A model generated the notes under the pieces. It made no database searches, was not told where the DNA came from, and saw nothing but the letters and a program-made list of their open reading frames with translations. The translations under genes and the position numbers were made by a program. This document shows, piece by piece, positions 3,753 through 62,871 of a stretch of DNA of 64,000 nucleotides. This DNA is from Gammaproteobacteria bacterium (GTDB taxonomy: Bacteria; Pseudomonadota; Gammaproteobacteria; Ga0077536): NCBI GenBank assembly GCA_024235015.1, contig JACKNG010000001.1:450905-514904 (forward strand), written 5' to 3'. Within the stretch, counting starts at the first letter, position 1, and every line of letters begins with the position of its first letter.

Positions 3753-3813
3753 AATTGGTGACAGTATACTTTCGGCGCCCCGGTGAGGCGCCGAAAGTAT
3801 ACTGTCACCAATT
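3753..3813. repeat. REP/REPIN-like inverted repeat, family 1 copy 1
   Basis: Perfect 27-bp arms AATTGGTGACAGTATACTTTCGGCGCC / GGCGCCGAAAGTATACTGTCACCAATT around a 7-nt loop, between divergent genes. Confidence 0.92.
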
Positions 3814-3850
3814 CGCTCGTTCCCCCGTCCGACCACGCCCGGAGTCCGCC

Positions 3851-5032
3851 ATGCAACGCAACGTCAATGTCCTCGGTGTCGGCATGACACCGTTCAAAAC
3901 GCCCAAGCACGCCGATCCCTACGACGTCATGGGCATCGCCGCCGGGCGCCTCGCCTTCGACGATGCCGGCATCGGCTACGACTGCGTCGAGCAGGCCTAC
4001 GTCGGCTACGTCTACGGCGATTCCACCGCCGGCCAGCGCGTGGTCTACGAGCTCGGCATGACCGGCATCCCGGTGTTCAACGTCAACAACAACTGTGCGA
4101 CCGGCTCTTCGGCCCTCTACCTCGCGCGCCAGGCGGTCGAGTCCGGCGCGGTCGAATGCGCGCTTGCGCTCGGCTTCGAGCAGATGAGCCCGGGCGCGCT
4201 GGGGGTGGTCTTCCCCGACCGCCCCGCCCCGCTCGGCAGGTTCGTCGAACGCGCCCTGGCCAAGTACGGCGACAGCCAGGTGCCGATGGCACCGCTGCTG
4301 TTCGGCGGCGCCGGGCGCGAGTACATGGAGAAATACGGCACCAAGCCGGAAACCTTCGGCCGTATCACCGTCAAGGCCCGCCAACACGCCGCGCACAACC
4401 CGAACGCCGTGTTCCGCGACCCGCTGAGCCTGGAGGAAGTCATGGCCAGCGCCTCGATCTGCGATCCGGTGACCCGTTTCCAATGCTGCCCACCGACCTG
4501 CGGCGCGGCCGCCGCGGTGCTGTGCTCGGACGACTTCGCCCGCCGTCACGGCCTCAAGCCCCGGGTCCGTATCGCCGCCCAGGCCATGACCACCGACACC
4601 GCCTCGACCTTCGGCGACAGCCTCATGGCGACGGTCGGTTACGACATGTCGAAAGCCGCGGCGCAAAAGGTCTACGAGGCCGCCGGCATCGGTCCCGAGG
4701 ACGTCAAGGTGGTCGAGCTGCACGACTGCTTCTCGACCAACGAGGTGCTCAACTACGAGGCGCTGGGCCTGACCGCCGAAGGCACGGCCGAGCGCATGAT
4801 CGAGGACGGCGACAACACCTACGGCGGCAAGTACGTGGTCAACCCGTCCGGCGGCCTCATCTCCAAGGGCCATCCGCTCGGCGCCACCGGGCTCGCGCAG
4901 TGCGCCGAACTCAACTGGCACCTGCGCGACGAGGCCGGGCCACGCCAGGTCGAGGGCGCCAAGGTCGCGCTGCAGCACAACATCGGCCTCGGCGGCTGCT
5001 GCGTCGTGACGCTCTACGAACGCCTCGGCTGA
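3851..5032 (+). CDS. SCP2-type thiolase (lipid-transfer protein)
   Basis: NVNNNCATGSSA, QCCPPTCGAAA, VELHDCFSTNE, KGHPLGATG and ALQHNIGLGG motifs. GGAG RBS before ATG 3851. Confidence 0.93.
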   Translation: MQRNVNVLGVGMTPFKTPKHADPYDVMGIAAGRLAFDDAGIGYDCVEQAYVGYVYGDSTAGQRVVYELGMTGIPVFNVNNNCATGSSALYLARQAVESGAVECALALGFEQMSPGALGVVFPDRPAPLGRFVERALAKYGDSQVPMAPLLFGGAGREYMEKYGTKPETFGRITVKARQHAAHNPNAVFRDPLSLEEVMASASICDPVTRFQCCPPTCGAAAAVLCSDDFARRHGLKPRVRIAAQAMTTDTASTFGDSLMATVGYDMSKAAAQKVYEAAGIGPEDVKVVELHDCFSTNEVLNYEALGLTAEGTAERMIEDGDNTYGGKYVVNPSGGLISKGHPLGATGLAQCAELNWHLRDEAGPRQVEGAKVALQHNIGLGGCCVVTLYERLG

Positions 5033-5054
5033 AGCCACGCCAGGCAGCCCGCGC

Positions 5055-5930
5055 GTGGCCCATCCCACCCTCACCGTCATCGGCCTCGGCCGCATGGGCA
5101 GCGCGCTGGCCGGCTGCTTCGCCGCCGCCGGCGTGCCGCTGACGGTGTGGAACCGCAGCCCCGCGCGCGCCTTCGCCTTCGACGGCCGCGCCGCCATCGG
5201 CCTGAACGCCGCCGCGGCCTGCGCCGCCAGCGACGTCATCGTGCTGTGCCTGTCTGATTACAGCGCCGGGCTCGAAGTCATGGACGAGGTCGCCGCACAC
5301 ACCGAACTGGCCGGCAAGCTGCTCGTGCAGTTCACCAGCGGCTCGCCCTCGGACGCCCGCACCATGGCGGCCTGGGCGCACATGCACGGGCTGGCCTACC
5401 TCGATGCCGCCATCCTCGCCTATCCCGCCGGCGTCGGCAGCGAGGGCGCGATCGTGTTCTACGCCGGCGACGAAGCGCCGTGGGAGCGCCATGCCGACAC
5501 CCTGCGCCTGCCGGGCGGCCTCACCCGCTACCTCGGCGAGGCGGTCGGTGCCGCCGCCGCGCTCGACTGCGCGGCGCTGGGCTATTACTACGGCGCGACC
5601 CTGGCGATGCTGCACGGCGCCGCGTTGTGCGAATCCGAGAGCCTGCCACTGACCGAGTACTTCTTCATCGCCAAGCGCCTCGCGCCGCTGCTCGCCGGCA
5701 CCGCCGACAATGCGCGCGAGATGATTGCGCGCGAGATCTACGCCGGCAACGAGTGCGCCAACGAGGTGCATACCGCGGCCATGCGCCACGTTCAGCGCAT
5801 GAGCCATGACAACGAGGTCGAGCCGCGCCTGGCCGATACCGTCATGGCGGCGTTCCGCAAGGCGCTGGCAGCAGGCCACGGCGAAGACGAGATCGCGGCC
5901 CTGTTCGAGGTCCTGCGCCGGCCGCGCTGA
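5055..5930 (+). CDS. NAD(P)-dependent oxidoreductase, imine-reductase/beta-hydroxyacid dehydrogenase family
   Basis: IGLGRMG Rossmann motif, VWNRSPAR, YLDAAILAYP, AAAALDCAAL. Confidence 0.82.
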   Translation: MAHPTLTVIGLGRMGSALAGCFAAAGVPLTVWNRSPARAFAFDGRAAIGLNAAAACAASDVIVLCLSDYSAGLEVMDEVAAHTELAGKLLVQFTSGSPSDARTMAAWAHMHGLAYLDAAILAYPAGVGSEGAIVFYAGDEAPWERHADTLRLPGGLTRYLGEAVGAAAALDCAALGYYYGATLAMLHGAALCESESLPLTEYFFIAKRLAPLLAGTADNAREMIAREIYAGNECANEVHTAAMRHVQRMSHDNEVEPRLADTVMAAFRKALAAGHGEDEIAALFEVLRRPR

Positions 5931-5936
5931 CGGCCC

Positions 5937-6269
5937 TCAGCCCGACGCGGCGAAAAAGGTATAGCTGCGCTCGACCCGCGCCACGCGCACGGCGTAGGCG
6001 TCGTACCACTGGGCGCGGCCGCGTTGCTGGGCGGCACGATGCTCGACGTGGCGTTTCCAGCCCAGGATCGCGTCCTCGTCGCGCCAGTAGCTGACGACCA
6101 CCTCGCCGCTCTCGTCGTGGGCCGACTCGACACCGAGGAAACCCGGCATGTCGGCCACCAGTTCGAGCATGCGGCCTATGGTGGTCTCGTAATCGGTCTG
6201 GTCGGCGCTGGCGCGGGCGCTGAAGATGACCGCGTAATACGGCGCTTCCAGGCCTTCAAGGATCTGCAT
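5937..6269 (-). CDS. Antibiotic biosynthesis monooxygenase (ABM) family protein
   Basis: PYYAVIF, PGFLGVES, VSYWRDE, WKRHVEHRAAQQRGR..WY. Start MQILEG at 6269. Confidence 0.87.
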   Translation of the reverse strand: MQILEGLEAPYYAVIFSARASADQTDYETTIGRMLELVADMPGFLGVESAHDESGEVVVSYWRDEDAILGWKRHVEHRAAQQRGRAQWYDAYAVRVARVERSYTFFAASG

Positions 6270-6372
6270 CGACGTCCCCTCCCCGCAAGTGGCAGGCGGC
6301 CAGCATAGCGCCGGCGAGGCGCCAGGGGATCGGCCAACTGCCGGCCACCGTCGCAAGCACCGTGGCACGCGT

Positions 6373-6520
6373 TCGCGGCCCAGGTATCCCGGAGGCGGCG
6401 TTCCGGGCGCCGCGAGAGCACCCGGCGTGGCGTGGTGTCGCCGGGCGCGGATCCGAGCGGTGGCGGCACCGGCGTGCAGGCCGAAAGGCCGGCCGAAAGG
6501 CGTTGCCCACCGCCCCCCGT
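6373..6520 (+). other. Putative structured RNA leader (multi-hairpin with tandem GAAA tetraloops)
   Basis: Stems TCGCGGC/GCCGCGA enclosing CCCGGA/TCCGGG; CCCGGCG/CGCCGGG; GCGGTGG/CCACCGC enclosing GGCC-GAAA-GGCC and GCC-GAAA-GGC. Lies in a 300-nt intergenic region. Confidence 0.3.
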
Positions 6521-6575
6521 GTCCACCGCCGCAGTGCCCACCGGCCTGTTAGACTGCGCGCCGGAGGTATCGCCC

Positions 6576-7373
6576 ATGTCCCAGCCGTTCCGCATCGCCG
6601 TCATCCTGCTCGCCCTCCTCGGCGCGCTGCCCGCGGCCGCCCAGCAGTCCGCCGTGGACGTGTGGGAGACCCTGCTGCGGCCGCACCATTTCCCGGACAC
6701 CGAGATCATCGAGGACAGCACGGTCATCGAGTTGAGCACGCCCTACCGCTCCGAGGATGCCGCCTTCACCCCGCTGCGCATCACGGCCAAGATCCCGCAG
6801 ACGCCGGCGCGCTACATCGAGTCCATCCACCTCTTCGTCGACCACAATCCCGAACCCGAGGTCGGCACCTTCCATTTCACGCCGGCCGCCGGCCGCGCCG
6901 ACCTCGCGCTGCGCATCCGCATCGATCGCTACACTGACGTGCGCGCCATCGCCGTGCTGAACAACGGCGAGCACCACATGGTCAAGAGCTTCGTCAAGGC
7001 GCAGGGCGGCTGCGCCATCCCGGTCGCCATCGACTACAAGCAGGCCATGGCCGGGCTCGGCAAGATCCAGTTGCACACCCTTACCGACAAGGTCGAGGAT
7101 GGCGCCGGCCTGCCGACCCAGCTGCGCATCCGCCACCCCAATTTCACCGGCATGCAGATGGACTACAAGATCTACGCCGTGCGCCCGGCGCACTACGTGA
7201 ACTCGATCCGCGTGCTGCTGAACGGCGAGGCCATCATGACCGCGGAGACCGGCATCTCGATCAGCGAGGACCCGAGCTTCCGCTTCTTCGTCAATCCCGA
7301 CGCCAAGGGCACCCTGACCGCCGAGATCACCGACACCAAGGGCAACAGCTGGGAAGAATCCCTGACCCTCTAG
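6576..7373 (+). CDS. Fused SoxY/SoxZ-like carrier (quinoprotein dehydrogenase-associated type), secreted
   Basis: Signal peptide; SoxY-like half (VDHNPEP..LRIRIDRYTDVRAIA..KAQGGC) fused to SoxZ-like half (IRHPNFTGMQMD..ISISEDPSFRF). GGAGG RBS. Confidence 0.88.
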   Translation: MSQPFRIAVILLALLGALPAAAQQSAVDVWETLLRPHHFPDTEIIEDSTVIELSTPYRSEDAAFTPLRITAKIPQTPARYIESIHLFVDHNPEPEVGTFHFTPAAGRADLALRIRIDRYTDVRAIAVLNNGEHHMVKSFVKAQGGCAIPVAIDYKQAMAGLGKIQLHTLTDKVEDGAGLPTQLRIRHPNFTGMQMDYKIYAVRPAHYVNSIRVLLNGEAIMTAETGISISEDPSFRFFVNPDAKGTLTAEITDTKGNSWEESLTL

Positions 7374-8350
7374 GCGTCGCGGCGCAGCAGCGCGGCGGCA
7401 CCCGCCAGGCAGGCCGCGGCCTCGGCCACGATACGCACGACGAGGTCGGCCGCCGGCGGACAATCGCCGACGAGGTCGGCCGCCTCGCCGACGATGACCG
7501 CGGCGCGCTCGGTATCGGCGGTGGCGACGGCCCTGGCGTAGTCGATACGTGCACTGTCGATGTCCCGTTCGAAGGCGGCCGGGTCGGCCGCGTACTCGCG
7601 CGTGACGGCGTTGGCGAGCGTGCGCAGGGCGTAACCCGGCGGCCAGTCCCAGCCGCGCAGTCGATCGAAGGCGGGGCTGCGCACGCTGTCGTCGCCGCTG
7701 GCCGCCACCGCCACGGCGCGCAGGGCGGGCGCGGCGAGCGATTCGGCACAGGCATAGAAGCGGCTGCCGAGCATGCCGCCGGCGGCGCCGAGCATCAGTG
7801 CCGCGGCCAGGCCGCGACCGTCGGCAATCCCCCCCGCCGCCACCACCGGCAACGGCGCCACGGCGTCGACCACCGCCGGCACCAGCGGCAGGGTGGCGCG
7901 CTGGCCGGCGTGCCCGCCGGCCTCGCTGCCCTGGGCGACGACGACGTCGGCACCGGCGTCGCGTGCTGCGCGCGCCTGCGCCACGCTCTGCACCTGCACG
8001 ACAAGGCGGGCGCCGGCGGCCCGGATCGCGGGGGCGAACGGCGCCGCCTCGCCAAACGACAGCAGCACGGCGCGCACCCCGTGCGCGAGGGCGAGATCGA
8101 GCACCGTCGGCCGCGCGGCGAGACGCCAGCCGATGAAACCGATGCCGACCGGTACGTCACCGGCGGCGGCGAGTTCGGCGCCGATCCATTCCGGGTCGCA
8201 ATAGCCGCCACCGATGAAGCCGAGCCCGCCGGCGCGGCTGACCGCCGTGGCGAGACGGCCGCCGGCGACGCCGGCCATGGGTGCCGACAGCAGCGGATGG
8301 ACGATGCCGAGGGTGGCGGCGAGCGGGCTGTGCAGGAGGCTGGAGGACAT
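7370..8350 (-). CDS. Nitronate monooxygenase family flavin oxidoreductase
   Basis: APMAGV, VAQGSEAGGH, VVAAGGIADGRGLAAALMLGA, LGSRF. Confidence 0.88.
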   Translation of the reverse strand: MSSSLLHSPLAATLGIVHPLLSAPMAGVAGGRLATAVSRAGGLGFIGGGYCDPEWIGAELAAAGDVPVGIGFIGWRLAARPTVLDLALAHGVRAVLLSFGEAAPFAPAIRAAGARLVVQVQSVAQARAARDAGADVVVAQGSEAGGHAGQRATLPLVPAVVDAVAPLPVVAAGGIADGRGLAAALMLGAAGGMLGSRFYACAESLAAPALRAVAVAASGDDSVRSPAFDRLRGWDWPPGYALRTLANAVTREYAADPAAFERDIDSARIDYARAVATADTERAAVIVGEAADLVGDCPPAADLVVRIVAEAAACLAGAAALLRRDA

Positions 8351-8439
8351 CCGCGGATTGTCCCTCCACGCCCGGCAACGGGGAAGTCGCGCCCCGACCT
8401 GGGCTACACTCGCCGCCCGCCCGTCAGCACCCAACGCCC

Positions 8440-9645: not shown

Positions 9646-9768
9646 TCCGGCCGCACCGGGGCAGCCTATAATCCCTCGCAGTTCAAGTTGTCATGCCGCC
9701 AGGCCGCCATAGGGGACAGCCGTGCCCCGCGCGCGGCCGTTACCAGCCACACGGAGCGATCGCCGCGC

Positions 9769-12700: not shown

Positions 12701-14268
12701 ACCTGGTCGGCCGCACCGATGACGACCTGTGGTGGGCCGAACACGCCCGCCAGTTCCACGAAGCCGACCGCCGCCTGCTCGACGGCGAAGTCCGCCAGCA
12801 ACGCTTCGAGAACGAGATCCGGCGCCCGGGGCGCGAACCCGGCTGGTACGAGACGACCAAGGTCGCCATGCGCGATGCCGACGGTCACATCATCGGCATC
12901 CTCGGCGCCATCCACGACATCACCACGCGCAAACGTGCCGAGGACGCCGCCCGCCACCTGGCGCGTTTCGATCCCCTGACCAACCTGCCCAACCGACGCT
13001 ATTTCGCCGAACGGCTCGAGACCAGCCTGGCCGCGGCGGCGCGCCACCTGCGCATGGGCGCGCTGTTGTTCATCGACCTCGACCAGTTCAAGCAGATCAA
13101 CGACACCCTCGGCCACTCGGTCGGTGATTCGTTGCTGCAGGCCGTCGCCGAGCGCCTGCGCAACGTCACCCGCCAGGAAGACACGGTGGCACGCCTGGGC
13201 GGCGACGAGTTCGTCGTCTTGTTACCGGAAGTAGCGGCCGACCTCGAGGCCTGTGCGCGCCAGGCGCAGACCGTGGCCGAGAAGATCCACAGCTCGCTCG
13301 GCCAGCCGTTCCAGTTCGATCACCACCAGTTCCACATCACGCCGACCATCGGTATCTCGCTGTTTCCCGAGGGCAACAAGAGCGTCGACGACGTGCTCAA
13401 GGAAGCCGACACCGCCATGTACAACGGCAAGGCGGCCGGGCGGAACGTCACCCGCTTCTTCCGCCGCGAGATGGAAGAGGCGGCGCAGGCGCGCCTGCGC
13501 ATCGAGGGCGACCTGCGCCGTGCGATCGTGCGGCGCGAGTTCGAACTCGCCTTCCAGCCGCAGGTCGACCGCGTCGGCGAAGTCACCGGCGCCGAGGTCC
13601 TGCTGCGCTGGCGACATCCCGAGCGCGGCATGATCCCGCCCGGCGAGTTCATCCCCATCGCCGAGGAACGCGGCCTCATCGTCGACATCGGGCGCTGGGT
13701 ACTCGATGCCGCCTTCGACAGCTTCCGGCGCTGGACCGACGACGGCAGCATCGACCTCGACGAACTGGCCATCAACGTCAGTTCGCGACAGTTCCGCTCG
13801 GACGATTTCGTCGCCGACGTCGAACGCCTGCTGGTGTTGCACCGCATCCCGCCGCACCGCATCGTGTTCGAGATCACCGAGAGCACGGTGGTCGAGGACG
13901 TCGAGGCCACCATCGAGATCATGGAGCGCCTGCGCCGGGTCGGCATCCGTTTCGCCATCGACGACTTCGGTATCGGCTATTCCTCGCTGTCCTACCTCAA
14001 GCGCCTGCCCATCGACCAGCTCAAGATCGACCGCTCCTTCATTGCCGACATCGGCCGCGACAACAACGACGAGGTGATCTGCCAGACCATCGTCGCCATG
14101 AGCCAGCACCTGCGGTTGCAGACCATCGCCGAGGGGGTCGAGACGCGCGAGCAGTACAATTTCCTGTCGCGCCTGCGTTGCAACGGTTACCAGGGTTACC
14201 TGTTCCTGCGCCCGTCGTCGGAGCAGGAATTCCTCGACTACTGCCGACACACGCAGGCGATGGCCTGA
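9769..14268 (+). CDS. Multi-PAS/PAC and GAF diguanylate cyclase/phosphodiesterase (GGDEF-EAL)
   Basis: Repeated GxW(E/D)W PAS_3-type units, two FWK/FWQ PAS_4-type units, central GAF-like region, RLGGDEF, AEVLLRW, DDFGIGYSSLSYLK. Confidence 0.93.
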   Translation: MTVQDLAAVQFDRERPERSGHMDDEVYAADDLLAAGFDAVTDAVLLLDGHGRVQRLNRAASALLGISSAQAASCPWSDIVTFDPALSEAPPSADEAGNPRPGEYAVALSGAVSEPGLRVTLLVWPLDAPARGSIMGLRPQRDLSRLEADLAHSRHLLRLACIRGQVGLWEWDVTTDLVRESGYWVGRTLHTAAGHENPSTALVPYLHPHDRRQARDALVAYLKGDTEFFECEMRLRALDGNYLHFLVRGQALGRDLDGRVLSMAGTNVDLSAYREQEALLEFALESSQQGIWDWDLDRHRITEHNYWRPDMARYRVPSVLSQARFMDLLPADDRERLRECAITYLRGGTTSMECEVRIARQDGTWGELLLRGRALERDDDGRVHRIIGTYTEIGALKAQERRLQLALENGRQGLFEWWPENDRLDFSREWYAMFGYPPGAIASLRVDLQRILHHDDVASGFAALVPMLRGERDTFEVEHRLRHADGHYLTVLSRGRVIERDAAGRAVRVIGTHVDVSALKATETRLLESRKLLETVIDAFPQRVFWKSLDDHYLGANRRFARDAGFDSPERLIGKAVADVPWPIAFDEIAADDRRLLDSGESHITVRRPFRTVAGEEFWAETTKVPILDAGGETIGILAYYDDVTEEQAREVQLRTVAEALTGHDRARLLDNLARAAAELAGADFAFIGRCQDNRAKLDIIARFPADGVQLESDYGIAGTPCARSLEDGFYFLRDGARERFPDAGVLHELDIAGYAGRQLTAADGHALGLLVLLFKQANADAGRVRRVIDVLEARITSELERELSLAELAASEQRLNAAIEAGGQGVWEWTPRSDALNVIGPFFRDRDVRTGHDIEALHHPDDLPQMRRVLREFLTGRTTFYEYEARLRVSADSYCWMLVRARAAERDAAQRVTRLIGTVTDISALKTAQATSEQAQQFLGLVIDTVPQAIFWQDLEFRYGGCNQRFADLAGVADPQDLVGRTDDDLWWAEHARQFHEADRRLLDGEVRQQRFENEIRRPGREPGWYETTKVAMRDADGHIIGILGAIHDITTRKRAEDAARHLARFDPLTNLPNRRYFAERLETSLAAAARHLRMGALLFIDLDQFKQINDTLGHSVGDSLLQAVAERLRNVTRQEDTVARLGGDEFVVLLPEVAADLEACARQAQTVAEKIHSSLGQPFQFDHHQFHITPTIGISLFPEGNKSVDDVLKEADTAMYNGKAAGRNVTRFFRREMEEAAQARLRIEGDLRRAIVRREFELAFQPQVDRVGEVTGAEVLLRWRHPERGMIPPGEFIPIAEERGLIVDIGRWVLDAAFDSFRRWTDDGSIDLDELAINVSSRQFRSDDFVADVERLLVLHRIPPHRIVFEITESTVVEDVEATIEIMERLRRVGIRFAIDDFGIGYSSLSYLKRLPIDQLKIDRSFIADIGRDNNDEVICQTIVAMSQHLRLQTIAEGVETREQYNFLSRLRCNGYQGYLFLRPSSEQEFLDYCRHTQAMA

Positions 14269-14425
14269 GGCCGGGTCACGCCGGCACGCCTCGAACCGGC
14301 CCGCCCACGCACGGCGTCGTCGCCACCCCGGAGGCTCCCCGCCATCACCGCGGCGGTCGCCGCCTGCCGCGCAGGCCCCGAAATCGGCCACAATGACGGC
14401 CCCAATCGTCGTCGCCGAGGTTGTC

Positions 14426-15412: not shown

Positions 15413-15558
15413 CCCGCCGCGGCGCCGGGCCTGCGCGCCTGCGGGGCCGGATATAGTTCACGATGGCGCCCGGCGCGCGAGCACCGGCAAGCGCACGCAC
15501 GAACTGCGCGGACCTGCGCCGTCCGCCTGACAAGGATCACGAGAAGACCGGAAACATC

Positions 15559-17115
15559 ATGCGAGTCACCCAACCCCTGCAGCGCAACCTGCAACAGATC
15601 CCCCACGACATCGCCACCATCGACGGCGAGCGCCGCCGCACCTGGGCCGAGTTCGTCGACCGCGTGGCGCGCCTTGCCGGCGGCCTGCGCGGCCTCGGCG
15701 TCGCGCCGGGCGACCGGGTCGCCGTCATCGGCCTCAACTCGGATCGACACATGGAGGTGTTCTTCGCCGTGCCGTGGGCCGGCGCCGTGATCGTGCCCAC
15801 CAACTACCGCTGGTCGGCGCCGGAGATCGCGTTCTCGCTCAACGACTCGGGCACCCGCGTGTTGTTCATCGATCACACCTTCTGGCCGCTGGTCGCCGAG
15901 CTGCGCGCCCTGGTCGACCATCCGTTGACGGTGATCTGCATCGACGCCGCATTGGAAGGTCACGACGCGGTACACGACGACCTCGTCGCCGCGCACGCGC
16001 CGCTCGAGGAACACGTCAACGAATCGACGTCACTGTCCGGCATCTTCTACACCGGCGGCACCACCGGGCGTTCCAAGGGCGTCATGCTGACCCACGGCAA
16101 CCACGTCGCCAACACCCTGCAGTTCGCCGCCATGATCAGCTTCGGCGCCGACATCTGCTACCTGCACGCGGCGCCGATGTTCCACATTGCCGACGCCCTG
16201 TACATCTACCTGGTCACCCACCTCGGCGGCCGCCACGTGTTCATCCCGCGCTTCGAACCGGCTGCCTGCGCCGCGGCCATGCAGGAACACGGCGTCACCG
16301 ACACCATCCTCGTGCCGACCATGATCCAGATGCTGCTGGAACAGAAGGGCTTCGCCGATTTCGACCTCTCGCGGCTCGAACGCCTCTACTACGGCGCCTC
16401 GCCGATGCCCGAAGCGGTGGCCGTCGACCTCATCGGCAAATTGCCGCACGTCGCCGCCTACCAGCTCTACGGCCAGACCGAGTCGGCACCGCTGCTGACC
16501 GCCCTCGACTCGCGTTTTCACGTCACCGAGGGCCCGCTCGCCGGCCGCCTGCGTTCGGCCGGGCGCGCCGTGCCGGCAGTCGAGATCCGCATCGTCGACG
16601 AAAACGACGTCGAGGTGCCGCGTGGCCAGGTCGGCGAGATCGTGGTGCGCGGCCCGAACATCATGAAAGGTTACTGGGGCCGCGACGATCTCACCGCCGA
16701 GGCCCTGCGCGGTGGCTGGCTGCACACCGGCGACGCCGCCTACATGGACGAGGGCGGCTTCATCTTCATCAGCGATCGGCTGAAGGACATGATCATCTCG
16801 GGCGGTGAGAACGTCTATTCGACCGAAGTCGAGAACGCGCTCTACCAGCATCCCGACGTCGCCCAGGTCGCCGTCATCGGCGTGCCGGACGAGAAATGGG
16901 GCGAACGGGTGCATGCGGTGGTCGTGCCGCGCGAAGGTGCAAATCCCGATCCCAAGGATCTCATGGCCTTCTGCCGCAGCCTCATCGCCGACTACAAGTG
17001 CCCGCGCTCGGTGAGCTTCCGCGACGAGCCGCTGCCGCTCTCGGGTGCCGGCAAGGTGCTCAAGACGGAACTGCGCAAGCCGTTCTGGAGCGGCCGCGAC
17101 CGCCAGGTCAACTGA
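15559..17115 (+). CDS. Long-chain fatty-acid--CoA ligase (AMP-binding)
   Basis: YTGGTTGRSKG, YGQTE, WLHTGD, RLKDMIISGGENVY, SGAGKVLK. Confidence 0.93.
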   Translation: MRVTQPLQRNLQQIPHDIATIDGERRRTWAEFVDRVARLAGGLRGLGVAPGDRVAVIGLNSDRHMEVFFAVPWAGAVIVPTNYRWSAPEIAFSLNDSGTRVLFIDHTFWPLVAELRALVDHPLTVICIDAALEGHDAVHDDLVAAHAPLEEHVNESTSLSGIFYTGGTTGRSKGVMLTHGNHVANTLQFAAMISFGADICYLHAAPMFHIADALYIYLVTHLGGRHVFIPRFEPAACAAAMQEHGVTDTILVPTMIQMLLEQKGFADFDLSRLERLYYGASPMPEAVAVDLIGKLPHVAAYQLYGQTESAPLLTALDSRFHVTEGPLAGRLRSAGRAVPAVEIRIVDENDVEVPRGQVGEIVVRGPNIMKGYWGRDDLTAEALRGGWLHTGDAAYMDEGGFIFISDRLKDMIISGGENVYSTEVENALYQHPDVAQVAVIGVPDEKWGERVHAVVVPREGANPDPKDLMAFCRSLIADYKCPRSVSFRDEPLPLSGAGKVLKTELRKPFWSGRDRQVN

Positions 17116-17139
17116 GCCGGCACGGCCCGCGCACATCAT

Positions 17140-17189
17140 GGTGACAGTATACTTTTCGGCCGTGCGCGGCCGAAAAATATACTGTCACC
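17140..17189. repeat. REP/REPIN-like inverted repeat, family 1 copy 2
   Basis: 23-bp arms GGTGACAGTATACTTTTCGGCCG / CGGCCGAAAAATATACTGTCACC (1 mismatch), 4-nt loop, between convergent genes. Confidence 0.9.
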
Positions 17190-17198
17190 CTATCCCGC

Positions 17199-18245
17199 TC
17201 AGCCGAACAGCTCGCGCAGCAACGCCTCGGTTTCGGCCCAGCCCATGCAGGCATCGGTGATCGACACGCCGTAGCGCAAGGCCTCGCGCACAAGCGGCTG
17301 GTTGCCGGCTTCGAGGTGGCTCTCCAGCATCAGCCCGACGATGCCCTGGCGCCCCGCGACGCGCTGCGCCATCACCGCGCGGGCGACGAGCGGCTGGCGC
17401 GCGGGGTTCTTGGCCGAATTGCCGTGACTGCAGTCGACCATCACCGCCGTGGGCAGGCCGGCCGCGCCGAGTTCGGCCACGGCGGCCTCGACCTGGGCGG
17501 CTTCGTAGTTGGGCTCGCGCCCGCCGCGCAGGATGAGGTGGACATCGGCGTTACCGCGCGTGCGCACGACCGCCGTGCGCCCCTGGCCGTCGATGCCGAG
17601 AAAATGATGCGCGGTGCGTGCCGCCTGCATCGCCTGCACGGCGATGGTCACGCTGCCATCGGTACCGTTCTTGAACCCGCACGGCGCCGACAGGCCGCTG
17701 GCCATCTCGCGGTGGGTCTGCGACTCGGTGGTGCGGGCGCCGATCGCGTACCAGCTGATGAGGTCACCGAGGTACTGCGGCACGATGGGATCGAGTGCCT
17801 CGGTCGCGGCCGGCATGCCGGCCTCGGCCAGTTCGACGAGGAAACTGCGCGCCAGGGTCAGGCCCGACTCGATGTCGAAGCTGTCGTCGAGCCGCGGGTC
17901 GTTGATCAGCCCCTTCCAGCCGGTGGTCGTGCGCGGCTTCTCGAAATAGACGCGCATGACGATGAACACGCGTTCGGCGAGTGCGGCGGCGAGTTCGCGC
18001 AGGCGGGCGAGGTACTCGCGGCCGGCCGCGAGGTCGTGGATCGAGCACGGCCCGACCACCACCAGGGCGCGCGGATCGCGCCCGGCCAGGATGTTGGCGA
18101 CGGCGGCACGCGAACGCGCGACGAATATCCCGGCCTCGGCCGCGAGCGGCAGGCGCCGGTGAAGATCGGCCGGCGACGGCAGCGGGGTCAGCGAGACGAC
18201 GTTCTGGTTTTCGAGCTGGCAGGCATCGTTGAGGGCTGTGGACAT
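17199..18245 (-). CDS. 3-deoxy-7-phosphoheptulonate (DAHP) synthase, class I
   Basis: VVGPCSIHD, MRVYFEKPRTTTGWKGLINDP, IGARTTESQTHREMASGLS, DCSHGNS, YGVSITDAC. Confidence 0.95.
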   Translation of the reverse strand: MSTALNDACQLENQNVVSLTPLPSPADLHRRLPLAAEAGIFVARSRAAVANILAGRDPRALVVVGPCSIHDLAAGREYLARLRELAAALAERVFIVMRVYFEKPRTTTGWKGLINDPRLDDSFDIESGLTLARSFLVELAEAGMPAATEALDPIVPQYLGDLISWYAIGARTTESQTHREMASGLSAPCGFKNGTDGSVTIAVQAMQAARTAHHFLGIDGQGRTAVVRTRGNADVHLILRGGREPNYEAAQVEAAVAELGAAGLPTAVMVDCSHGNSAKNPARQPLVARAVMAQRVAGRQGIVGLMLESHLEAGNQPLVREALRYGVSITDACMGWAETEALLRELFG

Positions 18246-18341
18246 GGTCATTTCCGGAGCGACGACCCGGGCGGGTCCTGTGGCAACATGGGCGGCGATC
18301 ATAACCCGCGCCCCCCGCGCGCGCCGCACCAGGGAGTCCGC

Positions 18342-19178
18342 ATGCAGCTCGCCATGAACATCCGCAACTGGGGCGCCCAGGCGACGCCGGCCAAGCTGCG
18401 CGCCTGCGCCGAGGCAGCCGACCGCTCCGGCCTGGACGCCATCTGGTTCAACGACCACATCGGCCTGCCGCCGGTGATCGGCGACAACGCCTACGGCATC
18501 CCGGACGAGATGGGTGCCATCCTCGACCCGCTGGGCTTCGCCCACTGGCTCGCCGCGGTGACCACCCGTATCCGTTTCGGTACCGCGGTGCTGGTCCTGC
18601 CCTACCGCCCGCCGCTGGTCACCGCCAAGCTCGTCCAGACCGTGCAGGCCCTGTCCGGCGGCCGCTTCCTGCTCGGCGTCGGACCGGGCTACCTGGCCGA
18701 GGAATTCACCGCGCTCGGCGTGGCGCGCAACCGCCGCGGCGCGCTCACCGACGAGGTGCTCGAGGTGCTGCACGCCGCCGCGCGCGACGGCGTGGTCGAA
18801 CGTCACGGCCAGCTGCTGCGGCTCGAACCGCGCCCGCCGCTGCCCCCGATCTACGTCGGCGGCGGGGCGGCGGCGGCGATCCCACGCGCGCTGGCCCGCG
18901 GCGACGGCTGGATGCCGGTCGGCCTCGCCCCCGCGGCCCTGGCGGCGCCGATTGCCGACCTCGCCGCGCGGACACGCGACGCCGGCCGCGAACCGCTCGC
19001 GGTGGTTGCGATGAAGACGCTGCCGCTGGAAGATCCCGCCGCCGCCGCAGCCCTGGCCCGCGCCTACCGCGATGTCGGCGTGACCCAGCTCGTCCACACC
19101 CAGGGCTACGACAGCCCGGCCCACTATGCCGAGGTGGTGGAGCAGGTCGACCGTGAGCTGCGCAGCGCCATCGCCTGA
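18342..19178 (+). CDS. Luciferase-like (LLM) flavin/F420-dependent oxidoreductase
   Basis: IWFNDHI, LDP..LAAVTTRIRFGTAVLVLPYRPP, GRFLLGVGPGY..EF. Confidence 0.85.
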   Translation: MQLAMNIRNWGAQATPAKLRACAEAADRSGLDAIWFNDHIGLPPVIGDNAYGIPDEMGAILDPLGFAHWLAAVTTRIRFGTAVLVLPYRPPLVTAKLVQTVQALSGGRFLLGVGPGYLAEEFTALGVARNRRGALTDEVLEVLHAAARDGVVERHGQLLRLEPRPPLPPIYVGGGAAAAIPRALARGDGWMPVGLAPAALAAPIADLAARTRDAGREPLAVVAMKTLPLEDPAAAAALARAYRDVGVTQLVHTQGYDSPAHYAEVVEQVDRELRSAIA

Positions 19179-19199
19179 ACCGAGTCCGAGAACATCCGC

Positions 19200-20045
19200 A
19201 TGAGCCATCACTACGACCACATCATCGTCGCGCCCTTGACCCCGGCCATCGGCGCCGTCGTCGACGGCGTCGACCTCGCGCGCCCGCTGGCCCCCGCCGT
19301 GTTGGACGAAATCCAGCATGCCTTCCACGAACGCCTGGTGCTGTTCTTCCGCGACCAGTCGCTGGCCCCGGAGCAACTGGTACGCTTCGCACGCAATTTC
19401 GGCGACATCGGCTACTACCCCTTCGTCGAGGGCATGGCCGGGCATCCCGAGGTCGTCGAGGTGGTCAAGAAAGAGGACGAGACCATCAACTTCGGGGGGC
19501 TGTGGCACACCGACACCGCCTACCTCGAACGTCCGCCGGCCGGCTCGGTCCTCTATGCCGTGACCGTGCCGCCCTACGGCGGCGATACCCTGTTCGCCAA
19601 CATGTACCTGGCCTACGACAGCCTCTCCGACGGCATGAAACGATTGCTGGAGGGCCTGCGCGGCGTCAACAGCGCGGAGAAGCCCGATGCCGCCGTCACC
19701 CGCGTCCACCGCATGGCCGACAAGCCGCGCGACGCCAGCGCCATCGTCACCACCGCCGCCCATCCGCTGGTGCGCACCCATCCCGTCACCGGGCGCAAGG
19801 CGCTGTACTGCTCGGATGCCCACACCACCCACATCGAGGGCATGAGCGTCGCGGAATCGCGCCCGCTGCTGCAATACCTCTACCGGGTGCAGCAGCGCGA
19901 GGAATTCGGCTGCCGGCTGCACTGGACGCCGGGCACGGTCGCGCTGTGGGACAACCGCTGCGCCCAGCACAACGCGCTGAACGACTACCACGGCCACTTG
20001 CGCGTGATGCATCGCGTCACGCTGGCCGGCGAGGTACCTTGCTAG
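19200..20045 (+). CDS. TauD/TfdA Fe(II)/2-oxoglutarate dioxygenase
   Basis: WHTDT (HxD), GGDTLFANMY, HPLVRTHP, WDNRCAQH. Confidence 0.92.
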   Translation: MSHHYDHIIVAPLTPAIGAVVDGVDLARPLAPAVLDEIQHAFHERLVLFFRDQSLAPEQLVRFARNFGDIGYYPFVEGMAGHPEVVEVVKKEDETINFGGLWHTDTAYLERPPAGSVLYAVTVPPYGGDTLFANMYLAYDSLSDGMKRLLEGLRGVNSAEKPDAAVTRVHRMADKPRDASAIVTTAAHPLVRTHPVTGRKALYCSDAHTTHIEGMSVAESRPLLQYLYRVQQREEFGCRLHWTPGTVALWDNRCAQHNALNDYHGHLRVMHRVTLAGEVPC

Positions 20046-20117
20046 GGTCCGTATTGCATCAATCGCAGCCTCCGACGCCGAGCCGCGCCGGGGCCCATCC
20101 CAGGGGAGAGCAACATC

Positions 20118-20798
20118 ATGAGCGAACGTTTTTTCACCGACGCGGAACTGCGCGAGATGGAGCGGCGCACGGTCGACCGCCTGACCGACGCCATCGAGGC
20201 CGGCGACAGCGACAAGGCCAAGAAGCTCGCCCGCCGCATGTACAACGAGTTCCTGTCCATGCACGACCTCTACCGCAACTGGATCACCGCGACCTTGAGC
20301 GAAGTCGGCCGGCGTTACGGTGACGAGGCGCTCGACGACGTCATGGTCGAGGGCGTGCGCGCCTGGTGGCAGCCGATCACGCGCGCCATGCCGCAGGACC
20401 CGGAGTCACTGCCGGCGCGCATCAAGATGTTCGCCGCTGGCCTGCACGGCCACCTGCAGCCGCTCGAGATCAGCGAGGACGACGACAAGATCGAGATCAA
20501 GATGTGCCCCTGTGGCAGCGGCGGGCGCCTGATCCAGGAAGGCAAGTACGAGGGCGACGAGGCCTTCCTCACCATCGAGAAAGGCCAGCGTATGACCTAC
20601 GGCCGCCCCGACTACCCGGTCTACTGCGCCCACGAGTACGCCATGGAACGGGTCGACATCGAGGAGAACGGCACACCGTTCGTCGTCGTCGAGCCGGCCG
20701 CCAGGCTCGGACGCGATCACTGCAAGATGGTCGTCTACAAGGATCCGGCCAAGATCCCGGCCGAGTACTACGAGCGCATCGGCCTGAAGAAGCCCTAG
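20118..20798 (+). CDS. Hypothetical protein with Cys/His motifs (V4R/ATC-hydrolase-like fold suspected)
   Basis: Strong GC3 codon bias and GGAGAG RBS; motifs MCPCGSGG, YCAHE, DHC. Confidence 0.75.
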   Translation: MSERFFTDAELREMERRTVDRLTDAIEAGDSDKAKKLARRMYNEFLSMHDLYRNWITATLSEVGRRYGDEALDDVMVEGVRAWWQPITRAMPQDPESLPARIKMFAAGLHGHLQPLEISEDDDKIEIKMCPCGSGGRLIQEGKYEGDEAFLTIEKGQRMTYGRPDYPVYCAHEYAMERVDIEENGTPFVVVEPAARLGRDHCKMVVYKDPAKIPAEYYERIGLKKP

Positions 20799-20847
20799 GC
20801 CACCGCCGTGCCGTCGCGCGGCGCGCCAGCGGCGGGCCGCGCGACCT

Positions 20848-21444
20848 TCAGGACGCGTCGAGCGCGGGCAGGCGCTGCTCGACGATGTCGGCAAAGCTCT
20901 GCAGCACGCGCAGGGTCAGGCCCCAGATCACGTGGTCGTCGAAGCGGATACCCGGGAAGCTGGCCCCACCCGGCGGGTATTCGATCTCGGTCACCGTGCT
21001 GTCGTCGAACAGGTGGGAAAGCGGCACCCAGAACACGCTGGCGACCTCGTGCGGCTGGCGCACCGTGGCCTGGGCCCGGGTTGCCCCACCGACGTGGTAG
21101 ACGAACGGCGACAGGGTCAGGCCGCCACGCACGTCCGGCCGCACCGGCAACGGCCCGACACGGTCGGCCGGACCGATGTGCAGGCCGATCTCCTCGAACG
21201 TCTCGCGCTCGGCGACGGCGTGGGCATCGGCATCGTGGATGCCGGCACGCCCACCGGGGAAGGCCACCTGCCCCGTCCAGGGGTCGCCCTTGCGCTCGGC
21301 GCGGCGGATGAAACAGACGTCGAGTTCGCGTGCGCCCGGCGACAGGATCATCGCCACCGAGGCGTGGCTGGGCGCGGGTTTGAAGGCGGCGGGGACGTGC
21401 TCCTGCGCGAGCAGGGCCGCGCGGATTTCTTCGAGGGTCAACAC
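20848..21444 (-). CDS. Nudix hydrolase, CoA pyrophosphatase type
   Basis: QVAFPGG, RETFEEIG, IWGLT motifs. Confidence 0.88.
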   Translation of the reverse strand: MLTLEEIRAALLAQEHVPAAFKPAPSHASVAMILSPGARELDVCFIRRAERKGDPWTGQVAFPGGRAGIHDADAHAVAERETFEEIGLHIGPADRVGPLPVRPDVRGGLTLSPFVYHVGGATRAQATVRQPHEVASVFWVPLSHLFDDSTVTEIEYPPGGASFPGIRFDDHVIWGLTLRVLQSFADIVEQRLPALDAS

Positions 21445-21520
21445 CGGGTAAGGTTCGCGATTCGCTGCCGCGGCGTCAAGCGCCCGCGCCGCGAACCGAG
21501 TCCAGCCACGAGGAGGAGCG

Positions 21521-21934
21521 ATGTCATTCCGCCACCAGATCCGCGTCCGCTACGGTGAGTGCGACCAGCAGGGTGTTGCCTTCAACGCCCACTACATGGC
21601 CTGGATGGACGACGCCACCGAGGTCTGGGTGCGCGGCATCAGCCCGGGCGGCGACTACCACGCCTTCGACTGGGAATGGATGGTGGTCAAGAGCGTGATC
21701 GAATGGCAGTCCTCGGCGCGCACCGCGGACCTGCTCGACATCGACGTCGGCGTGGTGCGCTGGGGGCGCAGCTCCTTCGATTTCGGCTTCGTCGGCTGCG
21801 TCGCCGGCCGCCCCGTGTTCAGCGGCCGCACCGTCGCGGTGAGCGTGAAGCCGGTGACCCTGGCGAAGATGGACACCCCCGCCGCGGTGCGCGAACTGCT
21901 GGGGCCGGCGTTGGACTGGGACGTGCCGGCCTAG
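21521..21934 (+). CDS. Acyl-CoA thioesterase (hotdog fold, 4HBT/YbgC-like)
   Basis: VRYGECDQQGVAFNAHYMAW; strong GAGGAG RBS. Confidence 0.88.
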   Translation: MSFRHQIRVRYGECDQQGVAFNAHYMAWMDDATEVWVRGISPGGDYHAFDWEWMVVKSVIEWQSSARTADLLDIDVGVVRWGRSSFDFGFVGCVAGRPVFSGRTVAVSVKPVTLAKMDTPAAVRELLGPALDWDVPA

Positions 21935-21947
21935 GACGGCGCATGCG

Positions 21948-21979
21948 GCGCGAATGGGCCGCGCGAATGGCGCGAATGG
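21948..21979 (+). repeat. Three direct copies of GCGCGAATGG leading into the family 1 repeat
   Basis: Copies at 21948-21957, 21961-21970 and 21970-21979; the last overlaps the left arm of the inverted repeat. Confidence 0.75.
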
Positions 21980-22049
21980 TGACAGTATACTTTTCGCATG
22001 CGCCGTGCCGTCGGCACGGCGTGAGTCAAAAGTATACTGTCACCATTCG
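21973..22049. repeat. REP/REPIN-like inverted repeat, family 1 copy 3, with nested hairpin
   Basis: Perfect 22-bp arms CGAATGGTGACAGTATACTTTT / AAAAGTATACTGTCACCATTCG enclosing a perfect 10-bp inner palindrome CGCCGTGCCG-t-CGGCACGGCG (22001-22021), between convergent genes. Confidence 0.92.
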
Positions 22050-22125
22050 TGCCAGCATTCGCGCAGCCGACGGCGCAACGCCGCGGACGGGCGTGGCAAC
22101 AGCTCTGCGCCCGTCCGTCAGAGCG

Positions 22126-61984: not shown

Positions 61985-61999
61985 CGGTGGCAGACACCA
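61985..61999. repeat. Degenerate family 2 palindrome
   Basis: CGGTGGCAGACACCA, 2 mismatches to CGGTGTCnGACACCG, downstream of the SDR gene. Confidence 0.5.
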
Positions 62000-62842: not shown

Positions 62843-62871
62843 GTCCCGTCTCCTTCACTGTGTCTCGCTGC

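What the first reader, a model, noticed from the sequence alone, without database searches (positions are those of the whole stretch)
3753..22049. A family of intergenic hairpin elements with conserved GGTGACAGTATACTTT arms and variable cores
Seen: three copies (3753-3813, 17140-17189, 21973-22049) share AT-rich arms GGTGACAGTATACTTT / AAA(G/A)TATACTGTCACC. Their GC-rich interiors differ in sequence yet stay self-complementary (GGCGCC, CGGCCG, nested CGCCGTGCCG). One is between divergent genes and two between convergent genes, so position is independent of promoter logic. Known: this is how REP doublets/REPINs or MITEs mobilised by RAYT (TnpA-REP) nucleases look. Inference: an active non-autonomous mobile family whose sequence I do not recognise as a described class. 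No cognate transposase is in the window.
Basis: partly seen in the sequence, partly recalled or inferred. Interest (0 to 1): 0.62.

Follow-up and report, generated by a model that had tools for sequence, protein, structure and literature searches.

The report
Hairpin repeats of a TIRYT transposase
The three intergenic hairpins belong to a family of about 60 short palindromic DNA repeats whose arms are the inverted-repeat ends of a RAYT-like tyrosine transposase (TIRYT) gene elsewhere in the genome; this kind of element was described in 2013 but has never been tested experimentally, so this is a new member of a known kind.

Summary
Three hairpins with arms GGTGACAGTATACTTT / AAAGTATACTGTCACC lie at 3753-3813, 17140-17189 and 21973-22049 (6 arm hits against 0.85 expected). 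Genome-wide there are about 57-61 paired copies, mostly 66-67 nt long.

A 215-aa HUH/Y1 transposase gene on another contig (C2:677801-678445) is bracketed by the same arms. It is 52% identical over its full length to a published TIRYT (gsu 2396). The arm head GGGGACAG fits the published TIR motif GGGGWSAS. Homologues about 50% identical, in many phyla, carry near-identical ends.

The repeats and the close transposase ortholog (86-87% identical) co-occur in only 2 of 41 related genomes. Of 28 mappable sister-genome copies, 26 sit at sites also occupied in this genome.

Across these pairs the 14 non-covarying arm positions differ at 1.6%. Flanks differ at 11%, and cores and neighbouring intergenic DNA are near saturation. 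Two arm positions switch on both arms together.

"Active" and "undescribed class" are not supported, and self-complementary cores are not typical of the family. Verdict: new member of a known, little-studied kind (TIRtron/TIRYT repeats).

The parts
3753..3813 (.). Copy 1: a short-core TIR-dimer hairpin. AATT + left arm 3757-3772 (GGTGACAGTATACTTT) + 21-nt core + right arm 3794-3809 (AAAGTATACTGTCACC) + AATT. It lies between a divergent luciferase-like monooxygenase (start at 3712, minus strand) and a thiolase (start at 3851, plus strand).
   Evidence: (DNA fold -34.8 kcal/mol, z -13.0). The orthologous site in sister genome G002 is occupied by a GGGGAC/GTCCCC subtype copy with a different core.
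17140..17189 (.). Copy 2: the shortest copy. Left arm 17140-17155, 18-nt core (TCGGCCGTGCGCGGCCGA), right arm 17174-17189 (AAAATATACTGTCACC) with one arm mismatch at 17177. It lies between a convergent acyl-CoA synthetase (stop codon ends at 17115) and DAHP synthase (stop at 17199, minus strand).
   Evidence: (z -11.8). The site is empty in G001, G003, G004 and G005 and holds a decayed copy in G002. In an independent sludge metagenome (X3) base 17177 is G, which restores the consensus pair.
21973..22049 (.). Copy 3: a full-length (67-nt) copy plus paired flank. CGAAT + left arm 21978-21993 + 35-nt core with its own inner hairpin + right arm 22029-22044 + ATTCG. It lies between a convergent thioesterase-like gene (stop codon ends at 21934) and an AMP-binding enzyme (stop at 22126, minus strand).
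   Evidence: (z -12.2). G002 holds a copy of a different subtype (GGGGACAGTTTAC/GTAAACTGTCCCC) with an unrelated core at the same site. G001, G004 and G005 have no element in this spacer. An RNA contig covering 21784-22032 runs from the upstream ORF into the element (weak evidence).
21950..21977 (+). Junction 'stutter': the word GCGAATGG (flank plus the first arm bases) occurs at 21950-21957 and 21963-21970, before the true junction at 21972-21979.
   Evidence: Such reiterations occur at 23 of 114 element ends genome-wide, against 7.3 +/- 2.3 in permutations.

Best explanation
The three hairpins are head-to-head dimers of the terminal inverted repeat (TIR) of a TIRYT. A TIRYT is a RAYT-like HUH/Y1 tyrosine transposase of the group called RAYT group 1 or TnpA_Y1 subclass 2.1. 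The cognate gene is not in the window. It lies at C2:677801-678445 (215 aa). A solo arm abuts its stop codon, and two full hairpins lie 54-240 nt upstream of its start; together these form a 'TIRtron'. Each element is a selected stem of about 24 bp (flank RAAY + GGKGACAGTWTACTTT + 1-3 more pairs). The stem closes a fast-drifting GC-rich interior that, in this lineage, is usually about 34 nt long with an apical GCCGCGGC. Shown here: the family has about 60 copies. It co-occurs with the transposase ortholog. Its arm is the conserved end of the whole transposase clade. Most copies predate the split of this species from one sister species. The arms are held nearly invariant while their surroundings are saturated with change. 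Inferred, not shown: by analogy with IS200/IS605 TnpA and E. coli TnpA_REP, the TIRYT would recognise the arm stem as a hairpin in single-stranded DNA and cleave and rejoin near its foot. That activity would have spread the dimers through intergenic DNA of the common ancestor of the two species. Since then the copies have been positionally stable and their arms and base pairing have been maintained.
For: (1) Four PF01797 Y1_Tnp genes are in the genome. Only the C2 gene is bracketed by this arm. (2) The protein keeps the HUH motif (NHVHLIM) and the YVESNPV tyrosine motif. Its best NCBIfam model is REP-associated tyrosine transposase. Its best PDB relative is E. coli TnpA_REP, 4er8. It is 52% identical over 215 aa to the named TIRYT gsu 2396 (E 3e-72). 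(3) The sister-genome ortholog (86-87% identical by tblastn) has the same layout at the orthologous locus. (4) In most of the 80 related loci retrieved, homologues of about 44-60% identity from many phyla are flanked by inverted repeats fitting roughly ATTNCGGKGACA(G/C)NNTAC. The left repeat usually ends some tens to about 120 nt upstream of the gene, and the right repeat lies at or shortly after the stop. (5) Co-occurrence: the strict paired-arm pattern and the close ortholog (86% in that search) both occur only in G000 and G002 among 41 relatives. (6) Covariation: at arm position 3 both arms carry the same base in 55 of 57 copies (35 G/G, 20 T/T, 2 mixed), against 0.53 in the control. At position 10 the figure is 53 of 57 against 0.45. 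Covariation also appears at position 17 and at flank positions -1, -2 and -4. (7) Across 26 orthologous pairs the 14 other arm positions differ at 12 of 728 sites (1.6%), while flanks differ at 11%. Cores are 67% identical against a 59% non-orthologous baseline, and adjacent intergenic DNA is 56% identical. Both arms switched together at position 3 in 7 pairs and at position 10 in 3 pairs. (8) Site 2 is empty in four congeners, and three congeners have no element at site 3. (9) The literature defines this kind: TIRtron/TIRYT, the TIR motif GGGGWSAS, and TIR repeats in dimers or clusters (PMC3733652); subclass 2.1 = TIRYT = RAYT group 1 (PMC6006769).
Against: No TIRYT has ever been shown to bind, cut or move its TIRs (PMC3733652 says so), so the mechanism is analogy. 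There is no sign of recent transposition in this genome: no dispersed copies share a core, nearly all copies are shared with the sister species, and no contig skips an element (though contigs hide rare variants). The protein scores below NCBIfam's RAYT cut-off (68.4 against 80 bits). About a third of the arms read GGTGACAG, which departs from GGGGWSAS at position 3. The very strong in-place conservation of the arms is more than a purely selfish, decaying repeat would predict. It therefore points to an additional host-level or transposase-dependent constraint that I cannot identify.
Confidence: 0.85

Rival explanations
1. Today the elements are mainly host-exapted structural elements, whatever their origin. 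They would act as 3'-UTR hairpins that stabilise mRNA or block read-through between convergent genes, or as binding sites for a host protein, and selection on the host would keep them. This does not exclude a TIRYT origin.
For: The arms differ at 1.6% across a species split where flanks differ at 11% and intergenic DNA is saturated. Base pairing is kept by double changes. Copies are enriched between convergent genes: 19 of 50 (38%) against 18% of intergenic regions (crude gene caller). An RNA contig runs from the upstream ORF into copy 3 and stops inside it.
Against: None of the three copies scores as an intrinsic terminator. The stem is followed by A-runs or mixed sequence, not a T-run. Nine copies sit between divergent genes. 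Four congeners with the same flanking genes do without the element at site 2, and three have none at site 3. The RNA evidence is a single contig at depth ~2 and could be DNA carry-over or an assembly break. A sequence-specific stem shared with unrelated phyla fits recognition by the transposase better than a generic RNA stabiliser.
Confidence: 0.25
2. The arms stay intact, and subtypes switch on both arms, because copies are repeatedly replaced in place. A family member of another subtype would insert into or convert an existing copy. On this view there is ongoing TIRYT-driven turnover rather than purifying selection plus compensatory change.
For: At orthologous sites both arms switch subtype together (7 of 26 pairs at position 3; 3 of 26 at position 10). 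Switched pairs have cores near the non-orthologous baseline of 0.59, for example L105 at 0.52 and L139-L146 at 0.59-0.62; L085 is higher at 0.73. Junction stutters at 23 of 114 ends suggest repeated events at the element boundary.
Against: No donor copies are visible. The median best non-self core identity is 0.72, and only tandem neighbours exceed 0.9. Same-subtype pairs also have baseline cores. Neighbouring intergenic DNA is equally scrambled, so core divergence needs no replacement. Mixed-arm intermediates exist (2 at position 3, 1 at position 10), as stepwise compensatory change or templated correction within the palindrome would predict.
Confidence: 0.15
3. They are canonical REP/REPIN elements of a group 2 or group 3 RAYT (the E. 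coli or Pseudomonas type).
For: The general look fits: extragenic palindromes, a Y1 gene flanked by them, and a best NCBIfam hit to the RAYT model.
Against: There is no GT[AG]G tag at the hairpin foot. The protein is 21% identical over 91 aa to E. coli RAYT but 52% over its full length to a TIRYT. It falls below the NCBIfam RAYT cut-off.
Confidence: 0.03
4. They are classical MITEs derived from a DDE-transposase insertion sequence, or operator pairs for a transcription factor.
For: They have terminal inverted repeats and a small size. Copy 1 lies in a divergent promoter region.
Against: There are no target-site duplications; the flanks are inverted, not direct, repeats. The only gene bracketed by these ends is a Y1 transposase. 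There are about 60 copies, mostly at gene 3' ends. Covariation between the arms is not expected for independent half-sites.
Confidence: 0.02

Closest known systems
TIRtrons / TIRYT and their TIR repeat families (Di Nocera, De Gregorio & Rocco 2013, BMC Genomics 14:522, PMC3733652); TnpA_Y1 subclass 2.1 (Quentin et al. 2018, PMC6006769); RAYT group 1 (Bertels et al. 2017, PMC5581495)
   Same: A RAYT-like HUH/Y1 gene is bracketed by terminal inverted repeats. The TIR head GGGGACAG fits the published GGGGWSAS motif. The TIRs are also dispersed in the genome as dimers and clusters. The protein is 52% identical to the published TIRYT gsu 2396 and shares the C-terminal TGRPLG region.
   Different: The copy number (about 60 dimers, or about 120 arms) is well above the ~12 flanking-16-mer occurrences reported on average for group 1. 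This lineage has a long (~34-nt) GC-rich spacer with an apical GCCGCGGC, whereas the compact hairpins common elsewhere have spacers mostly of 11-19 nt. A GGTGACAG subtype is also present. The ortholog comparison showing constrained, co-varying arms is, as far as I could find in the papers read here, not in that literature.
REPIN-RAYT systems (Bertels & Rainey 2011, PMC3116915; Nunvar et al. 2010)
   Same: Two inverted recognition sequences form a long hairpin with a less conserved spacer. A cognate Y1 gene is flanked by the same repeats. The system is inherited vertically with its host over a species split.
   Different: There is no GTAG tag. Each arm is not itself a palindrome (the GTTTAC subtype has 2 mismatches). 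The transposase belongs to a different clade. No master-sequence cloud of near-identical copies is seen.
IS200/IS605 (IS608, ISDra2) TnpA
   Same: It has the HUH/Y1 catalytic core (PF01797). The presumed substrate is a DNA hairpin in single-stranded DNA.
   Different: IS200/IS605 elements have subterminal, non-identical hairpins at the left and right ends and no terminal inverted repeats, and they move as whole ISs in multiple copies. Here the gene with these ends is single-copy and only the ends have multiplied.

Membership tests
TIRtron / TIRYT repeat family | Encodes a RAYT-like Y1 transposase with an HUH motif and a catalytic tyrosine | tested here: met
   PF01797 scores 46.3 bits against a cut-off of 23. 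The NHVHLIM and YVESNPV motifs are present. The best PDB relative is 4er8, TnpA_REP.
TIRtron / TIRYT repeat family | The gene is bracketed by terminal inverted repeats rather than GTAG REPs | tested here: met
   A solo arm abuts the stop codon (C2:677782-677797) and full hairpins lie at 678499-678565 and 678623-678689. The sister genome has the same layout.
TIRtron / TIRYT repeat family | The TIR carries the GGGGWSAS motif | tested here: met
   GGGGACAG fits exactly. 35 of 57 copies have it on both arms, and 20 of 57 have GGTGACAG, which deviates at position 3. The motif is quoted from PMC3733652.
TIRtron / TIRYT repeat family | The protein groups with named TIRYTs rather than canonical RAYTs | tested here: met
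   52% identity over 215 aa to gsu 2396 (E 3e-72), against 21% over 91 aa to E. coli RAYT. The reference sequences come from Additional file 5 of PMC3733652.
TIRtron / TIRYT repeat family | The TIRs are also dispersed as a repeat family, often as dimers or clusters | tested here: met
   There are 57-61 paired copies plus solo arms and tandem arrays, for example C6:227450-227674 and C1:544339-545066.
TIRtron / TIRYT repeat family | C-terminal HTH-like extension (Quentin 2018, subclass 2.1) | tested here: inconclusive
   A ~75-aa C-terminal extension aligns with that of gsu 2396, including TGRPLG, but no Pfam HTH domain was found at E <= 0.01.
TIRtron / TIRYT repeat family | The transposase binds, cleaves or mobilises its TIRs | not testable with these tools
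   No experiment exists even for published TIRYTs. Public contigs show no excision, but contigs drop rare variants.
Canonical REP/REPIN-RAYT | A conserved 5' GT[AG]G tetranucleotide at the foot of the hairpin | tested here: not met
   The consensus RAAY-GGKGACAGTWTACTTT has no GTAG or GTGG tag at the foot. The criterion is as stated in PMC6006769.
Canonical REP/REPIN-RAYT | The RAYT scores above the NCBIfam NF047646 cut-off, or belongs to groups 2/3 | tested here: not met
   68.4 bits against a cut-off of 80, and only 21% identity to E. coli RAYT.
Canonical REP/REPIN-RAYT | Doublets of inverted repeats form a hairpin and are abundant in extragenic space flanking a single cognate gene | tested here: met
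   This is a likeness of form, not of sequence family.
Classical MITE (DDE transposase derived) | Target-site duplications flank the terminal inverted repeats | tested here: not met
   Direct repeats of 3-5 nt are at or below the chimeric expectation at almost all offsets. The only 4-nt excess is the palindromic AATT. 17-22 of 57 copies have inverted flanks instead.
Intrinsic (bidirectional) terminator | A GC-rich stem-loop is followed by a T-run | tested here: not met
   No terminator-like site was found at any of the three window copies on either strand.
Any Rfam RNA family | A match at the gathering score | tested here: not met
   0 matches in the whole window.

The most novel reading that the evidence does not exclude
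TIR-dimer hairpins are the REPIN equivalent for the largest and most widespread RAYT group (group 1 / subclass 2.1), a group that published surveys report as lacking REP-like partners. They are also not decaying junk. In this lineage about 26 copies have kept the 14 non-covarying bases of each arm 98.4% identical, and kept their pairing through double substitutions, across a species split that has saturated the surrounding intergenic DNA. That would mean each locus is under purifying selection, or under active transposase-dependent maintenance. In other words, it would be a long-lived, vertically inherited TIRYT-repeat partnership with a function for the host.
Probability: 0.3. Interest if true: 0.55.

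Novelty: new member of a known kind. Interest (0 to 1): 0.3.

Why it matters
TIRYTs (RAYT group 1 / subclass 2.1) are the most widespread branch of the RAYT world, yet nothing is known experimentally about what they act on. This genome and its sister species give a clean natural data set. It contains one cognate gene and about 60 hairpin copies. It also offers orthologous copies for comparison and congeners that lack both the gene and the repeats. The data show which bases of the end are invariant (the likely protein contacts) and which are free as long as they pair (arm positions 3, 10 and 17, plus the flank). They also show that the interior is unconstrained apart from an apical GCCGCGGC. 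These features are direct design rules for a first biochemical test of a TIRYT. For annotation, the result explains a recurrent class of AT-rich palindromes in a 69% G+C genome and the contig breaks they cause in metagenome assemblies.

Tried and rejected
- **Rfam:** the gathering-score search of the window found no known RNA family.
- **Terminator and promoter scans at the three copies:** no terminator-like site was found. There was one weak -10-like TATACT inside copy 3.
- **Are the variable cores kept self-complementary?** Not family-wide.
- **Donor copies or recent bursts:** only tandem neighbours share cores.
- **Target-site duplications:** none were found.
- **The other three Y1 genes as cognate transposases:** rejected. 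The C1 gene has different ends (GGTGTCAGGT). The C4 and C9 genes have no detectable inverted repeats.
- **Present-day excision or empty alleles in public metagenomes:** four DNA runs, held as contigs, show the copies present and no contig that skips one. The listed joints have sides under 30 nt and are unrelated. This is inconclusive, because contigs drop rare variants.
- **Metatranscriptome:** one low-depth contig enters copy 3, which is too weak to build on.
- **An early idea that AGTATACT in both arms is a target-site duplication of a palindromic target:** rejected, because the GTTTAC/GTAAAC subtype shows the arms are true inverted repeats.
- **Gene caller:** my crude caller under-calls (2866 genes, 74% coding), so the seven 'inside ORF' placements and the exact context percentages are approximate.

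Full report
**1. The observation.**
- The word GGTGACAGTATA occurs six times in the window, as three inverted pairs. Shuffles give 0.85 +/- 0.81.
- As single-stranded DNA the three elements fold into near-perfect hairpins: -34.8, -24.7 and -38.5 kcal/mol, with z-scores of -13.0, -11.8 and -12.2.
- Copy 1 lies between a divergent luciferase-like monooxygenase and a thiolase.
- Copies 2 and 3 lie between convergent gene pairs: acyl-CoA synthetase / DAHP synthase, and thioesterase / AMP-binding enzyme.

**2. The family in the whole genome.** The window is C1:450905-514904 of a 4.66-Mb, 69% G+C, 13-contig genome.
- Allowing two mismatches per arm, I found 57 paired copies of 80 nt or less, or 61 pairings when tandem overlaps are counted, plus a few solo arms.
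- The modal length is 66-67 nt.
- The consensus is RAAY-GGKGACAGTWTACTTT(T)-core-(A)AAAGTAWACTGTCMCC-RTTY. In the modal class the centre carries GCCGCGGC.
- Window copies 1 and 2 are short-core deviants.
- Copies are extragenic and enriched between convergent genes. With a crude gene caller, 19 of 50 are convergent, against 18% of intergenic regions.
- No target-site duplications flank them. The flanks are inverted repeats, not direct ones.

**3. Structure.** Both arms of a copy almost always carry the same variant.
- At position 3 there are 35 G/G, 20 T/T and 2 mixed copies. The agreement is 0.96, against 0.53 in a chimeric control.
- At position 10 there are 29 A/A, 23 T/T and one C/C copy.
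- The same holds at position 17 and at flank positions -1, -2 and -4.
- The selected stem is therefore about 24 bp. Fourteen of the 16 arm positions are essentially invariant.
- The interior is different. Cores fold only marginally better than shuffles (mean z -0.57), and mirrored pairing stops after about 3 bases.

**4. The cognate gene.** A search for PF01797 finds four Y1 genes in the genome.
- The gene at C2:677801-678445 (minus strand, 215 aa) has a solo arm directly after its stop codon. Two full hairpins lie upstream of its start.
- The C1 gene has different ends (GGTGTCAGGT). The C4 and C9 genes have none detectable.
- The C2 protein keeps the HUH motif and the catalytic-tyrosine motif.
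- Its best NCBIfam model is REP-associated tyrosine transposase, but below the cut-off (68.4 against 80 bits).
- Its best solved relative is E. coli TnpA_REP, 4er8.

**5. The clade and its ends.** A scan of 185,579 species genomes returned 80 related loci.
- One has 87% identity. It lies in a MAG labelled 'Gammaproteobacteria bacterium CA_2019_TPBS_26', which is G002, the sister genome.
- There the layout is the same: hairpin, gene, solo arm. The locus is orthologous, next to the same response-regulator gene.
- The other loci are 44-60% identical. They come from Alpha-, Beta-, Gamma- and Deltaproteobacteria, Planctomycetota, Nitrospirota, Elusimicrobia, Acidobacteria and others.
- Most of them are bracketed by inverted repeats fitting roughly ATTNCGGKGACA(G/C)NNTAC(T/C)TAATT.
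- The geometry recurs. The left repeat usually ends some tens to about 120 nt upstream of the gene. The right repeat lies at or shortly after the stop.
- Head-to-head dimers of the arm core are also widespread.
- Elsewhere these dimers are usually compact hairpins with spacers of 11-19 nt. The ~34-nt GC-rich core with CCGCGG is specific to the G000/G002 lineage.

**6. What is known.** Earlier notes of this scan pointed to TIRYT. I treated that as a lead and read the sources.
- Di Nocera et al. 2013 (PMC3733652) define TIRtrons as RAYT-like genes flanked by TIRs, and TIRYTs as their transposases. They report a shared TIR motif GGGGWSAS. They also note that TIRs form moderately abundant families, often as dimers or clusters, and that no functional test exists.
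- Quentin et al. 2018 (PMC6006769) equate TIRYT with TnpA_Y1 subclass 2.1 and with Bertels' RAYT group 1. They found no REP-like sequences near those genes.
- Bertels et al. 2017 (PMC5581495) report only about 12 occurrences of flanking 16-mers for group 1.
- Using the published alignment, the C2 protein is 52% identical over its full length to the TIRYT gsu 2396 (E 3e-72). It is only 21% identical over 91 aa to E. coli RAYT.
- GGGGACAG fits GGGGWSAS exactly.
- Membership in the TIRtron/TIRYT kind is therefore met on every feature I could test. Membership in canonical GTAG-tagged REP/REPIN is not.

**7. Distribution and age.** Among 41 related genomes, only G000 and G002 carry the strict paired-arm pattern (32 and 34 hits).
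- The same two genomes are the only ones with the close ortholog (86% identity in that search). Other relatives have clade members of at most 56% identity, with different ends.
- I mapped 34 G002 copies onto G000. Of these, 28 could be placed, 26 fall at sites that also hold a copy in G000, one site holds a decayed remnant, and one holds nothing.
- Of the window sites, site 2 is empty in four congeners and decayed in G002. Three congeners have no element at site 3. Sites 1 and 3 are occupied in both G000 and G002.
- The expansion therefore predates the split of the two species, and most copies have not moved since.
- Independent activated-sludge metagenomes carry all three window copies unchanged. 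One exception is base 17177, where sample X3 has G. That restores the only mismatched pair of copy 2.
- No contig skips an element, and several contigs break inside the hairpins.

**8. Constraint.** This comparison covers the 26 orthologous pairs.
- Flanks, which are mostly coding, are 88.7% identical.
- The 14 non-covarying arm positions differ at only 12 of 728 sites (1.6%).
- Cores are 67% identical, against a 59% baseline for non-orthologous cores.
- Ordinary intergenic DNA starting 8 nt outside the arms is 56% identical, which is saturated.
- Core drift therefore needs no special mechanism, but the arms are strongly held.
- Position 3 switched on both arms in 7 pairs, with 2 mixed. Position 10 switched in 3 pairs, with 1 mixed.
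- I see three candidate causes: purifying selection with compensatory change, templated correction within the palindrome, or in-place replacement by other family members.
- No donor copies are visible, so I rank replacement lowest. None of the three is excluded.

**9. Mechanism: what is shown and what is inferred.** Shown:
- the family and its stem;
- the link to the C2 TIRYT, by adjacency, by co-occurrence and by clade-wide conservation of the ends;
- the family's age and the constraint on its arms.

Inferred by analogy with IS200/IS605 TnpA and TnpA_REP: the TIRYT reads the arm as a hairpin in single-stranded DNA, cuts and rejoins near its foot, and this spread the dimers.

A possible footprint exists. 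The word made of 4 flank bases plus the first 4 arm bases is reiterated just outside 23 of 114 element ends, against 7.3 +/- 2.3 in permutations. An example is GCGAATGG, which occurs three times upstream of copy 3. I did not follow this further.

**10. Verdict.** The RAYT-type interpretation is right in kind, but 'active' and 'undescribed' are not supported. This is a new, unusually copy-rich and well-resolved member of the TIRtron/TIRYT kind. Interest is modest (0.3). The most novel reading still open is that these hairpins are maintained, functional partners of the largest RAYT group. I give that about 0.3 probability.

Noticed in passing
window 62968-62980 and 63031-63043 (also noted by another reader at 61985-63065): A second palindrome family, GGTGTC-N-GACACC. 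The pattern GGTGTC N0-2 GACACC occurs 128 times genome-wide. Its head matches the GGTGTCAGGT inverted repeats that bracket a different Y1 gene at C1:138929-139630. It may be that gene's own repeat family.
   Followed up: partly
window 21950-21979 and 22056-22064; genome-wide at 23 of 114 element ends: 'Junction stutter': the 4 flank bases plus the first 4 arm bases are reiterated one to three times just outside the element, against 7.3 +/- 2.3 ends in permutations. This could be a footprint of abortive cleavage and ligation at the cap, or of slippage at the hairpin foot.
   Followed up: partly
genome contigs C4:435541-436167, C9:199674-200534, C1:138929-139630, C2:677801-678445: The genome holds four different RAYT-like Y1 genes, 31-38% identical to one another. 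All hit the NCBIfam RAYT model best. Only two of them have recognisable inverted-repeat ends.
   Followed up: partly
window 3757-3809 (copy 1): Copy 1 fills 61 of the 138 nt between two divergent start codons. Each AT-rich arm carries a -10-like TATACT about 45-50 nt upstream of a start codon, in a 69% G+C genome. The element may therefore supply or overlap both promoters. The scan tool flagged the same hexamer only at copy 3.
   Followed up: no
window 17177: The only arm mismatch of copy 2 (A at 17177, opposite C) is G in an independent sludge metagenome (X3), which restores the consensus pair. This is strain-level polymorphism in the direction of pairing.
   Followed up: partly
window 3782, 22031, 22049 (contig ends in runs X1, X3, X4): Metagenome contigs end inside or exactly at the hairpins. 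These palindromes break short-read assemblies, which may explain fragmented MAGs in this clade.
   Followed up: no
window 13055-14368 and 17654-18310: Summed contig depth in the sludge metagenomes is 5-8 times higher here than over the rest of the stretch, with many short joints. This is probably conserved or repeated gene segments shared with other community members. I did not examine it.
   Followed up: no
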